Source of the DNA: Octopus vulgaris
Taxonomy: Eukaryota
Assembly (NCBI GenBank): GCA_951406725.2
Contig: OX597818.1
Coordinates: 87,544,001 to 87,608,000, forward strand
Length of the DNA stretch: 64,000 nt
Direction: 5' to 3'
Below the pieces are notes generated by a model, which saw only the letters and a list, made by a program, of their open reading frames with translations, did no database searches and was not told the DNA's origin. A program made the position numbers and the translations under genes. Shown in pieces: positions 4,966 through 43,646 of this stretch (positions are counted from its first letter, which is position 1; every line of letters starts with the position of its first letter).

Positions 4966-5040
4966 CGGAGATGTACTTGCATAGTAAGTGACCTGATCTG
5001 AGATCGTGTGTTGGAACGAAAACAATTGCGGCATGGAAGG

Positions 5041-5246
5041 TGTTTCTAAGCCATTTAAGAAACACACAAAAACCGTTAGATTCACTTCAACATTTAAATT
5101 TAATTTGTCAAAATATTTTCGTCGCTTTAAGACCGCGACCTGTTCAATGACAAAACTTCGTGCGACGAAAATATTTTGACAAATTAAATTTAAATGTTGA
5201 AGTGAATCTAACGGTTTTTGTGTGTTTCTTAAATGGCTTATAAACA
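5041..5246. repeat. near-perfect inverted repeat (85-bp arms, 36-nt spacer)
   Basis: 5041-5125 is the reverse complement of 5162-5246 with one mismatch. Confidence 0.9.
5104..5154 (-). ncRNA. type I hammerhead-like motif with variant core (UUGAACA)
   Basis: Minus strand: TTTGTCA-TTGAACA-G-GTCGC(ggtcttaaa)GCGAC-GAAA-ATAT-TT-TGACAAA; 7-bp stem I, 5-bp stem II, palindromic stem III. Confidence 0.55.
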
Positions 5247-5249
5247 GCT

Positions 5250-5686
5250 TGCACGCTTCCCTAATGTAATCGGTAAAACTAAGCACGTGTCTGTCTTGGC
5301 ACAGAAAGCTGGGGTTAGTTTTTCAGATTGCATTTACACTGAACTATTGCACTGATGAAGCCACGGACATTTGAATTATGTAAGTAGTTCTTTTGTTAAA
5401 GGCCGAAACCGAGGTATGCATTTAATTCTGTTTTTTATATAAATTTTCATCTGTCCTGCCCGCCAAATTTGGTTCTGGTGTTCGCTGAATTTTTCCTCTA
5501 GAGAATTTTCTTTGTAGTTTGATCGTTGATGATCTATTTCTAGCATACGGCCGACTACCTAGCAGTCTTGCCCTGCCAATATACACATATATTAGAATTT
5601 TCTCTGACTTCTCAGATTTTTTGTATGCTAGACTACTGGTTTTAAATTGATATTAAAATTAATATTAATTTATCTCCCTCATTATT

Positions 5687-7658: not shown

Positions 7659-7835
7659 TTTTAACTCTTATTTCTAGCAATGTCAGTGCTGCGGCGCACT
7701 TAGTCACTCTTAGTGACAATTGAATTTTTCCATTTTGGTATCACATTGCGCCTGGCTGTTTATATTAACTTTTAGTATACGTATTAACATTTCGCTAATC
7801 CTCCATAAATTTTGATGGTAAATAAATATATGTAT

Positions 7836-8272
7836 ATATATTGCAAATAAGAAAATGGAGGAAAACAATAGTTGGTTCATCAACTTTAGGATATTAAAAA
7901 TGTTAACTTATTATTTATTAAACTGATAATACTAATAACATACATACATACATATAGCATATTATTCTGTGCATTAGAATAATATGCTATATGCATGTAT
8001 GTTATAATTGTCAGTTTAATAAATAAATAAGTTAACATTTTTAATGTCCTAAAGTTGATTAACCAACTATTGTTTTCCTCCATTTTCTTATTTGCAATAT
8101 AAATTAATGGTAAAATATCTCTTTACCTTCACCCATTTAATACACTAACTAATGTAATTGCAATTCAATAAAAAAACACTTGTGTATTAATAATTGGGTA
8201 TTCTACCAACAGTATATTGGATAGATATTATCCCTTGGTGGGTTGAACTCACAACCCCTAACTTTCTTGGAG

Positions 8273-8865: not shown

Positions 8866-9176
8866 TATAATATTAATTAGAGACAAAACCACTATTTTGT
8901 AAATCAAACAAGGAAAGACTTAATACATAAAAAAATTTTAATATAAAGTAAATAAATCGCCACTACAATTGTTTCCTGTCTTCAAATGGCATTCATCAGG
9001 TGGATTTCATATCTTCCATTCAATTTAAATTGAATGGAAGATATGAAATCCACCTGATGAATGCCATTTGAAGACAGGAAACAATTGTAGTGGCGATTTA
9101 TTTACTTTATATTAAAATTTTTTTATGTATTAAGTCTTTCCTTGTTTGATTTACAAAATAGTGGTTTTGTCTCTAA

Positions 9177-9187
<11 letters not shown>
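8866..9187. repeat. perfect 322-bp spacerless palindrome carrying two divergent hammerheads
   Basis: Centre CAATTT|AAATTG at 9026/9027; the 161-bp arms match by eye; the cassette lies between (TA)n tracts. Confidence 0.9.
9050..9093 (+). ncRNA. minimal type I hammerhead motif (mirror copy at 8960-9003 on -)
   Basis: CCAC-CTGATGA-aTG..CAg-GAAA-CAATTG-TA-GTGG; palindromic stem III; stem II is weak. Confidence 0.7.
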
Positions 9188-10713: not shown

Positions 10714-10742
10714 TATATATATATATCTGTAAATATAAATAT

Positions 10743-10950
10743 ATCTGCAAATATAATATGTGACAATTATTTGGCAGCCAAGATAAAACTCTGAATTTCG
10801 GATGCCGAGGTGGAAATCCACACCACCATCTCTTCAGTTATCCGATGGCGGATAACTGAAGAGATGGTGGTGTGGATTTCCACCTCGGCATCCAAAACTC
10901 AGAGTTTTATCTTGACTACCGAATAATTATCACATATTATATTTACAGAT
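10743..10950. repeat. inverted repeat (102-bp arms, 4-nt loop) carrying two divergent hammerhead motifs
   Basis: Each arm reads GATAA-CTGAAGA-GATG...CATC-C(G/A)AAA-(T/C)TCAGAG-TT-TTATC. The minus copy (10782-10842) keeps CGAAA; the plus copy (10851-10911) has CAAAA. Confidence 0.85.
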
Positions 10951-11012
10951 AAATTCCTCTATTTACATAATATTGAGGTCTCTTTCTTTCTTTTGTTATC
11001 TTACCGTTTTTA

Positions 11013-12165: not shown

Positions 12166-12545
12166 GTCAAAATGTCTGGAGAATATTGGAAAAATTTTTT
12201 TCCTTTCCTTAAAATGACATAATTTTAAAATTTTTAAAGAAATTACCGGTTTCGCGTGTAGCTTTTCAAATTTCTTGTGACGTTATGTTTATATTGCATG
12301 GAGCTATCGTTGTGTTTATTAACAGGAGATTTCTAAATAAGGGGAGGTAGTGAGTGATTTCTTCCGGTGTAAGGGAGATAATCGCTTAAATTTTTTTTTT
12401 CCTTTTTCCTTGTTAATTTCTCTGTGTCAGTATGTTCGGATGGTTGAGTCTGGGTTTGTACTTTTCAATGAAGAATGTTTCCTTGTTCAGTCTCATTTGT
12501 GTTGATGATCCGAAAGCACATTGGTAAAATGGGTATCTCTTAGCT
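12163..12545 (-). mobile_element. Penelope-like element 3' fragment (GIY-YIG C-terminus plus pLTR)
   Basis: The minus frame reads YPFYQCAFGSSTQMRLNKETFFIEKYKPRLN (E..I..P.LN end of GIY-YIG), followed by an HHR and (TA)n. Confidence 0.7.
12241..12272 (-). ncRNA. minimal hammerhead with U3-A8 core variant
   Basis: Minus strand: AAT-TTGAAAA-GC(tacac)GC-GAAA-CCGG-TA-ATT. Confidence 0.6.
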
Positions 12546-14740: not shown

Positions 14741-14859
14741 GCTTACGGCTATATCACTTTGAAAGCACCGGTTCTCGTCCGATCACCGAAATTAAGCAAC
14801 GTCGAGCCTAGCTAGTACTTGAATGGGTGACCGCTTGGGACACCTTGGTGCTGTAAGCG
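14741..14859 (+). rRNA. 5S rRNA: 5S rRNA, solitary dispersed copy (probably pseudogene)
   Basis: GCTTACGGCTATATCAC...CCGGTTCTCGTCCGATCACCGAA..TAAGCAACGTCGAGCC..TAGTACTTGAATGGGTGACCGCTTGGGA..GGTGCTGTAAGC. The ends pair (GCTTACGGC/GCTGTAAGC) and a T5 run follows. There are substitutions in box A/C and no tandem array. Confidence 0.9.
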
Positions 14860-15035: not shown

Positions 15036-15098
<63 letters not shown>

Positions 15099-15779
15099 AT
15101 TTAGAGGGCAAGCCACTATGTGGTCGGCCGTATGCTAGAAGTAGATCACCTACGATCAAACTACAAAGAAAAGAATGTTCTCTAGAGGAAAATTCAGCGG
15201 ACACCAGAACGAAAATGCGGGCAAGACAGATGAATATTAGTTTGATCGTAGGTGATCTACTTCTAGCATACGGCCGACCACATAGTAGCTTGCCCTCCAA
15301 ATATACACATGTATTAGAATTTTCTCTGATTTTTCAGATTTTTGTATGCTAGGCTACTGGTCTTAAATTGATGTTAATTAAATTAATATTCAATTTATCA
15401 CAGGAGTGGCTGTGTGGTAAGTAGCTTGCTAACCAACCACATGGTTCCGGGTTCAGTCCCACTGCGTGGCATCTTGGGCAAGTGTCTTCTACTATAGCCC
15501 CGGGCCGACCAAAGCCTTGTGAGTGGATATGGTAGACGGAAACTGAAAGAAGCCCGTCGTATATATGTATATATATGTATGTGTGTGTATGTTTGTGTGT
15601 CTGTGTTTGTCCCCCTAGCATTGCTTGACAACCGATGCTGGTGTGTTTATGTCCCCGTCACTTAGCGGTTCGGCAAAAGAGACCGATAGAATAAGTACTG
15701 GGCTTACAAAGAATAAGTCCCGGGGTCGATTTGCGGTGCTCCAGCATGGCCACAGTCGAATGACTGAAACAAGTAAAAA

Positions 15780-33099: not shown

Positions 33100-33307
33100 A
33101 TATCCACTCCGCCATCTCTTCAGTTATCCGGCCATCGAAAAAAATTTAAAGAGACCTCGATGTTATGTAAATAGAGGAATTTATCTGTAAATTTTTTCCG
33201 ATGGCCAGATAACTGAAGAGATGGCGGCGTGGATTTCCTCCCCGACATCCGAAAATCGGAGTTTTATCATGGCTACCGAATAATTGTCACATATTACATT
33301 TACAGAT
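33100..33307 (+). mobile_element. rearranged copy of the 10743-10990 HHR family (HHR at 33208-33268)
   Basis: GATAA-CTGAAGA-GATG...CATC-CGAAA-ATCGGAG-TT-TTATC, preceded by inverted pieces of the same element; (TA)n on both sides. Confidence 0.75.
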
Positions 33308-41547: not shown

Positions 41548-41607
<60 letters not shown>

Positions 41608-41774
41608 GATGGGCTTCCACACTGTTTCCATCTACCAAATTCACTCACAAGGCACTGGTCGGTTCGTAGATATTATAGAAAAGACTTGCTCAAGGTATCG
41701 CGCAGTGGTACTGAACCGGAAAGCAAGGATTGTAAAATGAGCTTTTGAAGCAAAAAACCTTGCCATTATATATC

Positions 41775-41922
<148 letters not shown>

Positions 41923-42089
41923 GTTATAGTAAAAATCCCAAATCTTGTTAAATACAGCTACCCAGGGAATCCTAGTCGAAATAATTTATTTCGCCAGTTT
42001 TGTTTGTGATCATTATTTAGGCTTGAAAAAATGATGAAATAAATTATTATTTCGATCAGGAAACCTTGGGTAGCTGGTATGTAAACAAT

Positions 42090-42860
42090 AATGAATTGTG
42101 GGCACACTGTATTTTGTTATGCAACCATAATATACTATAAAGTATATTTAATGCTTTTTATAACTCAATACCATGCTCTGCTGTGTTAGCAGTGTTCTTA
42201 CATTACTTGTTAAGCTTATCTACAGATATTCTATAGAAATTGTTGCTAGCACTGATTTTTGTGACAACGTTTCGCATCCGAGACGTCAAATATAAACAAG
42301 GAAAGCGAAGATGAAAAAAGGGCAATGGGCTTATATACCATGTTTCGGGAGTTTTTAATCCTTCATCAGTATCTATCTGACCCATTAATCATCCATGAAC
42401 ACATGGCTTAGATAGCCACTAAATACAACGGTGTAACGTTATTTGATATACCAGTTTTACATATTTACGTACCACCTTCCAGGAATGTGTTTAATACATA
42501 AAATTAGTACATCAAATAACGTTCACCACTGTATTTAGTGGTTATATAAGCAATAGACGATTAAAGGGTTAGGTGGATGTTGATGAAGCAGCAACCTCCC
42601 ACGAAATATGGCCTACACGCCCATTACCCCCTTTTCATCTTCGATTTCATTGTTAGTTTACACGTGACGTCCACGGTACGAAACGTCGTAACAAAAAACA
42701 GTGCTAATTTCTGTATAATATCTATAGAGATGACCTTAACAAGTGATGTTAAGAGCACTGCTAACACAGTAGAACGCAGTGTTGATATATAAAATCGTAT
42801 AAAATACCTTTTATTATATTATAGTTGCATAACGAAATTACGCATCCCTACAAGTCATCA
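42090..42860. repeat. long diverged inverted repeat (arms about 370 bp) containing a hammerhead
   Basis: Colinear complementary blocks along both arms (e.g. CTGTGTTAGCAGTGTTCTTA / TAAGAGCACTGCTAACACAG; CACTAAATACA / TGTATTTAGTG). A second hairpin lies at 41940-42090. Confidence 0.8.
42333..42373 (-). ncRNA. minimal type I hammerhead motif
   Basis: Minus strand: ATA-CTGATGA-a-GGA(ttaaaaac)TCC-c-GAAA-CATGG-TA-TAT. Confidence 0.7.
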
Positions 42861-43646
42861 ATAAAATACTAGGAGCAGGAAAGTAACAATTACGGTCTGC
42901 CTATATAAAGTATCAGATGTTTTTCTGTCGCATCGTGTATATGCACTTTTTAAGTAGCAGTTGATGATATGTGCGATGTACTACTCCCTATAAAAATGGT
43001 GCATGCGGAAATTTACAGATGTTTCTTGCTTAACACAGATTTTTTTTATTTCTACTGTTACATGCTGAGCCTATAGGATTCCTCTATGTATTGTCTAATG
43101 ATGTCATTTCTTTCTTATGAGAGATGACAATTGAAAGATGCAGAAAAGTGTCTACTGTCTAACGGTTTTCATATAACATACATACGTATATATGCCTATT
43201 TGATTCTCCTCTTTGGCTCTGTCTCTCTCTGTCTCTCTCTCTCTCTCTCACTCTCTCTCTCTCTCTCTCACTCTCTCTCTCTCTCTCACTCTCTCTCACA
43301 CACACACTTTATATATATGTATATAGCAAAACATACGTTTTATATATACATATATATATGTGTGTGTATATATACATGTATGCTTGTATACACACACACA
43401 TATATTTACAGACATACACATACATGTAGGCAGAAAAAAATACAGAGATCGATAGGTAGAGACAGAGAGGGCGACAGAGAGAGAGAGAGAAAGATGGAGA
43501 TTTGTACATCAATGGTTTTTTTCATATTACACATATATTTGAGAGTATATCTATCTATTGATCTATTTGTCAGTCGGTCTGTTTGTCTGTCCGTCTGTCT
43601 GTATACAGTTGGATGCATATAAATGTATATACATACACACACACAT

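What the first reader, a model, noticed from the sequence alone, without database searches (positions are those of the whole stretch)
41930..42860. About 770-nt imperfect rod with a hammerhead in one polarity and a relic in the other
Seen: after a long (TA)n come a hairpin of about 150 nt and two arms of about 370 nt that are complementary end to end but much more diverged than the other palindromes. There is an HHR on minus (42333-42373) and a degenerate counterpart on plus (about 42577-42615, TTGATGAAG..CGAAATATGG). Established: viroid-like circular RNAs are rods with paired opposite-polarity ribozymes. Inference: this is either an ancient inverted pLTR duplication or an element that propagates as a rod-shaped RNA.
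Basis: partly seen in the sequence, partly recalled or inferred. Interest (0 to 1): 0.7.

Follow-up and report, generated by a model that had tools for sequence, protein, structure and literature searches.

The report
Back-to-back hammerhead mini-retroelement insertion
The 790-base rod is two old, decaying copies of a common 413-base repeat that carries a hammerhead RNA motif, joined head to head, likely in a single Penelope-type jumping-gene insertion; it is an ordinary scar and not a viroid-like RNA that spreads as a rod.

Summary
The rod is real (z -39), but it is not the replicating unit. Each arm is a copy of a ~413-nt non-coding repeat (2570 first-look candidates) with a type I hammerhead of the minimal Penelope-like (PLE) kind. 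The rod's centre junction occurs only here, against 215 head-to-tail junctions. Head-to-head pairs are common in the family (13 of 30 loci picked by the hammerhead alone), and none of the 36 others shares this breakpoint. The arms are no closer to each other than unrelated copies (76.7% vs 77.6±2.8%). In same-locus contigs from other runs, 0 of 24 substitutions are compensated. Random copy pairs fold better in 32 of 40 trials. Both hammerheads are decayed. The 150-nt hairpin belongs to a separate repeat family. The layout is a known PLE insertion shape, and this scan noted it before on other DNA of this genome. No coding partner was found, so the PLE link rests on anatomy. Side findings: two fixed 3' ends about 120 nt apart, and arms that abut on a dimer template as twin priming predicts.

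The parts
42461..42863 (+). Right arm: full copy of the 413-nt repeat unit (unit 408-413 plus 1-410), 82-84% identical to the family majority sequence
42072..42465 (-). Left arm: inverted, 5'-truncated copy (unit 27-413) that reads 11 nt on into the next unit start; 87-89% identical to the family majority sequence
42461..42465 (.). Inner head-to-head junction; 5 bases (ATATT) fit both arms (microhomology); unique to this locus
42325..42376 (-). Type I hammerhead motif of the left arm: core letters intact, helices partly broken (4/7, 3/4, 3/4 pairs)
42573..42624 (+). Hammerhead relic of the right arm: C3U, U16.1C, helices 6/7, 2/4, 2/4
42072..42076 (.). Outer left junction: 5 bases (AGCTG) fit both the hairpin family's arm and the rod unit's start; no target-site duplication seen
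41921..42076 (.). Small hairpin of an unrelated repeat family (head-to-head ~80-nt arms, ~52-nt tail at one end in other copies); here the outer ~40 nt of its right arm are missing, replaced by the rod
41776..41920 (.). (TA)n microsatellite flanking the hairpin

Best explanation
The rod is two copies of a 413-nt non-coding, hammerhead-bearing repeat joined head to head, likely written in one insertion event by Penelope-like (PLE) retrotransposon enzymes and decaying without selection on the pairing since. Shown: the unit, its dispersal, fixed 3' ends with ragged 5' ends, head-to-tail partial tandems, head-to-head pairs with locus-specific breakpoints, a unique junction here, and no compensatory change. 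Inferred: mobilisation in trans by a PLE reverse transcriptase and GIY-YIG endonuclease; hammerhead processing of multimeric transcripts of source copies; and formation of this rod by reverse transcription primed from both target strands. The likeliest form is twin priming on one longer-than-unit RNA: left arm 27-413+11 and right arm 1-410 are adjacent on a dimer, and both junctions have 5-nt microhomology. Priming on two RNAs is the alternative.
For: Family: 2570 candidates, 40 scored, best hits one arm long; unit 413 nt; 23 copies 81-90% from the majority sequence, with CpG sites three times as diverged (0.35 vs 0.12). Junctions: rod pattern 3 matches (self plus 2 with no family sequence; control 1) against 215 head-to-tail matches (control 0). 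Head-to-head in 13 of 30 hammerhead-picked loci and 37 of 93 distinct loci; only the window has the 27|1 junction. Arms: 76.7% identity vs 77.6±2.8% for 253 unrelated pairs; shared derived changes 4 vs 5.9±3.2; transition share 0.60 vs 0.60. Same-locus contigs: 0 of 24 substitutions compensated; of 21 that could be polarised, 14 break, 4 create and 3 leave pairing (hand count; consistent with neutral expectation, p 0.29 and 0.11). 32 of 40 random copy pairs fold better than the real arms. The hammerhead has the extra base after A9, G10.1-C11.1 and a near-palindromic stem III, as in PLE minimal hammerheads (PMC4209133). Inverted 5'-truncated copy, head-to-head layout and a tail at one end are described PLE traits (PMC8557442; PMC3846280).
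Against: No coding partner found: the unit profile hit none of 30 GIY-YIG loci (best E 3.8; 30 of 148 matches examined), and 23 PLE-like ORF pieces hit none of 69 plus 30 family loci. In 16 head-to-head pairs with enough overlap (window included), arms are on average somewhat closer than controls (mean z +0.86; L080 and L092 share 15 and 18 variants), but this pair is not (0.763 vs 0.772), so common origin of its arms is not shown. Both arms end near 413 here, true of only 3 of 37 head-to-head loci, while 18 end at 292/413. The family-wide test for arms abutting on one template was not significant (10 vs 6.4 expected, p 0.07 at ±15 nt; 13 vs 11.0, p 0.26 at ±30 nt). No target-site duplication, and part of the neighbouring hairpin arm is lost. 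Pair-creating changes are slightly above expectation (4 of 21).
Confidence: 0.85

Rival explanations
1. Two independent insertions of the same repeat (or a later rearrangement that brought two copies together) happen to lie head to head.
For: The arms are no more alike than unrelated copies. The left arm has a 4-nt deletion seen in 4 of 23 other copies but not in the right arm. Both ends are at ~413, which is rare (3 of 37).
Against: The arms abut with no spacer and with 5-nt microhomology. Head-to-head pairs make up 13 of 30 hammerhead-picked loci, far more than chance adjacency among a few thousand copies in 2.8 Gb would give. The family is nearly star-like, so arms from one event would also look unrelated after this much decay. 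The deletion lies in a short tandem and may recur.
Confidence: 0.1
2. The rod is itself a replicating viroid-like or retroviroid-like RNA with ribozymes in both polarities, captured as DNA.
For: Rod fold in both polarities and hammerhead motifs facing each other on opposite strands, as in many viroid-like circles (bioRxiv 10.1101/2022.07.19.500677, passages).
Against: Single-copy junction; no compensation; fold no better than random copy pairs; both ribozymes decayed; no wobble bias towards one strand (17 vs 28, p 0.14); both arms are copies of one monomer that travels alone or head to tail; only 2 of 30 hammerhead-picked loci carry the motif in both orientations.
Confidence: 0.02
3. The insertion was co-opted by the host as a long hairpin (dsRNA, small-RNA or editing substrate) and is kept for its pairing.
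For: Present at the same site in contigs about 3% diverged; 4 of 21 polarised changes create a pair, against about 2 expected (p 0.11).
Against: 14 of 21 changes break pairs and none is compensated; arm identity equals that of unrelated copies.
Confidence: 0.03

Closest known systems
Insertions of endonuclease-bearing Penelope-like elements with inverted pLTR and tail (PMC3846280, passages; PMC8557442, passages)
   Same: Fixed 3' ends, 5' truncation, partial head-to-tail tandems, an inverted 5'-truncated copy at the 5' end (head to head), and an extension at one end only (18 of 37 loci end at 292/413).
   Different: No ORF: the whole element is 413 nt. The one-sided extension is about 120 nt rather than the 30-40 bp described. 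In this rod both arms carry it. No target-site duplication seen.
Minimal type I hammerheads of metazoan PLEs (PMC4209133, parts 1-2 of 4 read)
   Same: Extra base between positions 9 and 10.1, G10.1-C11.1, bulge in helix II as in Drosophila virilis Penelope, palindromic helix III, mostly dispersed single motifs. The paper already reports pairs 100-700 bp apart on opposite strands in Schistosoma; here they are about 210 nt apart.
   Different: Helix I is 7 bp and helix II only 4 bp in the majority sequence; helix III has 4 bp. Activity untested.
Metazoan non-LTR retrozymes (PMC7229834, passages; bioRxiv 10.64898/2026.07.22.740005, part 1 of 5 and passages)
   Same: Non-coding unit of about 400 nt, low GC, type I hammerhead, head-to-tail junctions; the majority sequence is self-paired as a circle (z -7.2). 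The preprint derives retrozymes from PLE pLTRs.
   Different: Mostly 1-1.5 units rather than tandem arrays (two or more junctions in 2 of 69 loci); PLE-type rather than canonical hammerhead; old and decayed; circRNA not shown; frequent inversions.
Viroid-like circular RNAs and retroviroid CarSV (bioRxiv 10.1101/2022.07.19.500677, passages)
   Same: Rod fold with hammerhead motifs on both strands.
   Different: Here the rod is a one-off inverted DNA duplication of one monomer; no evidence of replication, circularity or selection on pairing.
LINE-1 twin priming and dual priming (PMC2837659, passages)
   Same: Two oppositely oriented pieces, adjacent on the template, with microhomology at the second priming site and at the inner junction.
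   Different: Described for L1 with poly(A) priming and target-site duplications; here it needs a longer-than-unit template, and no duplication is seen.

Membership tests
Penelope-like element (non-autonomous derivative) | 5'-truncated partial tandems forming pLTRs, with fixed 3' ends | tested here: met
   215 head-to-tail junctions; 3' ends cluster at ~292 and ~410-413, other 5' starts scattered
Penelope-like element (non-autonomous derivative) | Inverted 5'-truncated copy adjoining the 5' end, with variable breakpoints | tested here: met
   13 of 30; 37 of 93, none sharing the window's breakpoint
Penelope-like element (non-autonomous derivative) | [quoted passage not shown] | tested here: inconclusive
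   One-sided extension in 18 of 37 loci, but about 120 nt long; present on both arms of this rod
Penelope-like element (non-autonomous derivative) | Minimal type I hammerhead in the repeat | tested here: met
   Core and helices in the majority sequence; A-U to G-C covariation in 4 of 23 copies in helix II; no Rfam match
Penelope-like element (non-autonomous derivative) | Shared ends with an autonomous RT plus GIY-YIG element | tested here: inconclusive
   None among 30 of 148 GIY-YIG matches, and no ORF piece within 1.5 kb of family copies; the sample is dominated by young families
Autonomous PLE | ORF with RT and GIY-YIG endonuclease | tested here: not met
   The unit is 413 nt with 413 joined to 1; no PLE protein match
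Non-LTR retrozyme | 150-450-nt non-coding unit with type I hammerhead | tested here: met
Non-LTR retrozyme | Tandem arrays with two or more complete hammerhead-bearing units | tested here: inconclusive
   Junction in 41 of 69 loci, two or more junctions in 2 of 69; at this locus the two units are inverted, not tandem
Non-LTR retrozyme | Self-cleavage and accumulation as circular RNA | not testable with these tools
   Needs a cleavage assay and RNase R / outward RT-PCR
Viroid-like / retroviroid-like RNA | The rod itself is the propagating unit | tested here: not met
   Junction single-copy
Viroid-like / retroviroid-like RNA | Pairing maintained by compensatory change | tested here: not met
   0 of 24; shared derived 4 vs 5.9
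Viroid-like / retroviroid-like RNA | Intact ribozymes in both polarities | tested here: not met
   Plus motif has C3U and U16.1C; minus motif has 5 of 15 helix pairs broken
Viroid-like / retroviroid-like RNA | Circular RNA of both polarities | not testable with these tools
   Only contigs were available

The most novel reading that the evidence does not exclude
The 413-nt unit is a retrozyme-like circular or multimeric RNA that PLE enzymes prime at two fixed sites about 120 nt apart, and this rod is a flipped dimer: one longer-than-unit RNA copied from both target strands by twin priming. That would tie PLE inverted pLTRs and tails to twin priming on a circular or multimeric template. It would also show how a genomic retrozyme yields, in one step, a rod with opposite-polarity hammerheads, the raw layout of a viroid-like RNA.
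Probability: 0.3. Interest if true: 0.5.

Novelty: new member of a known kind. Interest (0 to 1): 0.22.

Why it matters
Mostly as a caution: a viroid-like layout (rod plus facing hammerheads) arises for free whenever a PLE-type hammerhead repeat inserts head to head, so such genomic rods are not evidence of RNA replicons. The family's two fixed 3' ends about 120 nt apart and its longer-than-unit insertions give a countable handle on how PLE inversions and tails form, which the papers read call unresolved. Had the rod been a replicon it would have been a retroviroid-like element in an animal genome; the tests here speak against that.

Tried and rejected
Rfam scans: no hammerhead model matched in the stretch; the whole-window scan listed only the best 150 of 308 matches, a 5S rRNA and microRNA-model hits on simple repeats. 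Folding each hammerhead alone: z -0.05 and -0.36. Wobble strand bias: 17 vs 28, not significant. Expression: no RNA holder listed among 24 runs; this is no evidence either way. Autonomous partner: not found; the stop-free scan was cut in output and showed none in the part seen. Two other matches to the rod-junction pattern have no family sequence and were rejected as chance. A strong 5' stop at the predicted cleavage site (unit 160/161) is not seen: 6 starts in 140-159 and 2 in 160-169. Family-wide single-template test: inconclusive. Target-site duplication around the rod: none seen by eye. 'Tail-to-tail' tags come from a small internal palindrome (unit 347-368) and were disregarded. Hairpin and rod as one element: rejected; 0 of 14 other hairpin-family loci carry the rod unit. 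Look-up of earlier notes by sequence: nothing. Not-in-print check: searches listed no paper describing this family; Repbase and Dfam were not available, and no supplements were read, so it may already be catalogued.

Full report
1. Observation. The stretch 41930-42860 folds into a small hairpin plus a long rod at -392.3 kcal/mol against -190.2±5.1 for 20 shuffles; the other strand folds about as well (z -35.4). The arms align with 279 matches, 80 mismatches and 23 gap columns. The hammerhead letters are present: CUGAUGA from 42369 on minus and UUGAUGA from 42580 on plus. Rfam does not recognise either at E<=10.

2. What the arms are. A search of the own genome (2.8 Gb; earlier notes call it an octopus, which I did not test) gave 2570 candidates, 40 scored, and the best hits cover one arm, not the rod. 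An alignment of 23 copies defines a 413-nt unit. Copies are 81-90% identical to the majority sequence and CpG sites are three times as diverged (0.35 vs 0.12), so the family is old. The right arm is unit 1-410; the left arm is unit 27-413 inverted, reading 11 nt on into the next unit start. The majority hammerhead is a type I motif with an extra A after position 9, G10.1-C11.1, a variable bulge in stem II and a near-palindromic stem III; one stem II pair switches from A-U to G-C in 4 of 23 copies. The core is intact in 9 of 25 copies; core columns differ at 22 of 273 cells (8.1%) against 11.8% elsewhere, not tested for significance. These traits match the minimal hammerheads of metazoan PLEs, and that paper already notes pairs on opposite strands 100-700 bp apart (PMC4209133, parts 1-2 of 4).

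3. Is the rod the unit? No. A 24-letter pattern across the rod's centre found the window and two sites without family sequence (control 1); the matching head-to-tail pattern found 215 sites (control 0). Among 30 of 54 loci picked by the hammerhead letters alone, 13 are head to head, 10 show the head-to-tail junction and 2 carry the motif in both orientations. Among 93 distinct loci (111 before removing duplicates; a sample biased by my queries), 37 are head to head and only the window has the 27|1 junction within 10 nt. Inversion is routine in this family, and breakpoints are locus-specific.

4. Is the pairing under selection? No sign of it. Arm identity is 76.7% against 77.6±2.8% for 253 unrelated pairs; shared derived changes are 4 against 5.9±3.2; the transition share is the same. 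Wobble-type mismatches do not favour a strand (17 vs 28, p 0.14). Contigs from runs X4-X7 bridge the centre junction at about 3% divergence, and separate contigs run into the right flank. X5, X6 and X7 are nearly the same haplotype, so these are about two lineages, not four. Of 26 substitutions, 24 have a partner position and none is compensated. Of 21 that could be polarised against the family majority, 14 break a pair, 4 create one and 3 change nothing (hand count; 3 unclear rows and 2 loop rows left out); this is consistent with neutral expectation (p 0.29 and 0.11), with a slight excess of pair-creating changes. Joining random unrelated copies head to head in silico gave a more stable fold than the real arms in 32 of 40 trials.

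5. Mechanism. Shown: fixed 3' ends (near 292 and 410-413), scattered 5' ends, partial tandems and inverted 5'-truncated copies. This is the insertion anatomy described for endonuclease-bearing PLEs, including the head-to-head bias and a tail at one end (PMC8557442 and PMC3846280, passages). Inferred: the unit is a non-autonomous element moved by PLE enzymes, close to the non-LTR retrozymes, which a 2026 preprint derives from PLE pLTRs. The majority sequence folds well as a circle (z -7.2, 40 shuffles), while 8 real monomers give only -0.5 to -5.3 in sense. For this locus, the two arms are adjacent on a dimer template (27-413+11, then 1-410), with 5-nt microhomology at the centre and at the outer left junction. 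That is what twin priming predicts (PMC2837659, passages), and L080 shows the same layout. The family-wide test is inconclusive (10 vs 6.4, p 0.07; 13 vs 11.0, p 0.26), so priming on two RNAs remains open.

6. Against this reading. No coding partner was found (30 of 148 GIY-YIG matches; tblastn), so PLE dependence rests on anatomy and hammerhead type. In some other inverted pairs the arms share source variants, but not here, so one event is likely but not proven. Both arms end near 413, a minority layout (3 of 37). There is no target-site duplication, and the neighbouring hairpin has lost its outer end.

7. The small hairpin is a different family (186 candidates). None of 14 other loci carries the rod unit; 7 of 14 have two long head-to-head arms, 6 of them with a ~52-nt tail at one end.

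8. Comparison and novelty. It works like a head-to-head PLE insertion of a retrozyme-like mini-element. It fails three tested features of viroid-like RNAs and lacks the ORF of an autonomous PLE. Membership among non-autonomous PLE derivatives is met on three features and inconclusive on two. Earlier unreviewed notes of this scan report the same shape for other families in this genome. My reading was set down before I saw them; they gave me the lead to PMC3846280 and prompted the arm-origin test. Searches listed no paper on this family, but repeat libraries and supplements were not seen. Verdict: real feature, new member of a known kind, interest 0.22. The ~120-nt one-sided extension and the dimer-template junction are the parts worth a genome-wide count.

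Noticed in passing
family loci L003-L158 (e.g. L017, L054, L132): The family has two fixed 3' ends, near unit 292 and 410-413. In 18 of 37 head-to-head loci one arm ends at each, a one-sided extension of about 120 nt, longer than the 30-40 bp PLE tail in the papers read.
   Followed up: partly
L080:1509-2139: A second head-to-head locus with both ends near 413, where the left arm reads a few bases into the next unit and the right arm starts at unit 10, the same abutting layout as the window. Its arms share 15 variants.
   Followed up: partly
window 41921-42076; L032-L045: Separate hairpin family (186 candidates): 7 of 14 other loci have two long head-to-head arms, and 6 of these carry a ~52-nt tail at one end only, again PLE-like. 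A PLE-like RT relic lies beside L041, which may be coincidence.
   Followed up: partly
window 8866-9187: Perfect 322-nt palindrome with a hammerhead-like CUGAUGA...GAAA motif on both strands; likely a young insertion of the same shape from another family.
   Followed up: no
window 10728-10967 and 33102-33262: Two related palindromic repeats with a CUGAAGA...CCGAAA hammerhead-like motif and a long stem II.
   Followed up: no
window 5031-5256, 7834-8104, 15092-15309: Further imperfect palindromes (85, 88 and 75%) with no match to my hammerhead pattern.
   Followed up: no
window 14741-14859 (+): 5S rRNA match, 98.2 bits, full model length; gene or pseudogene not examined.
   Followed up: no
window 12443-12535 (-): Short match to a PLE-like ORF piece (71% over 31 aa).
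   Followed up: no
window 41605-41765: Abundant short interspersed repeat found in many fetched loci; its likeness to cephalopod SINEs is recalled, not tested.
   Followed up: no
L105 (G000:C16:20838796 region): The genome holds many near-identical 781-aa open frames ending in a GIY-YIG domain, a likely young PLE-type family with no detected similarity to this unit.
   Followed up: no
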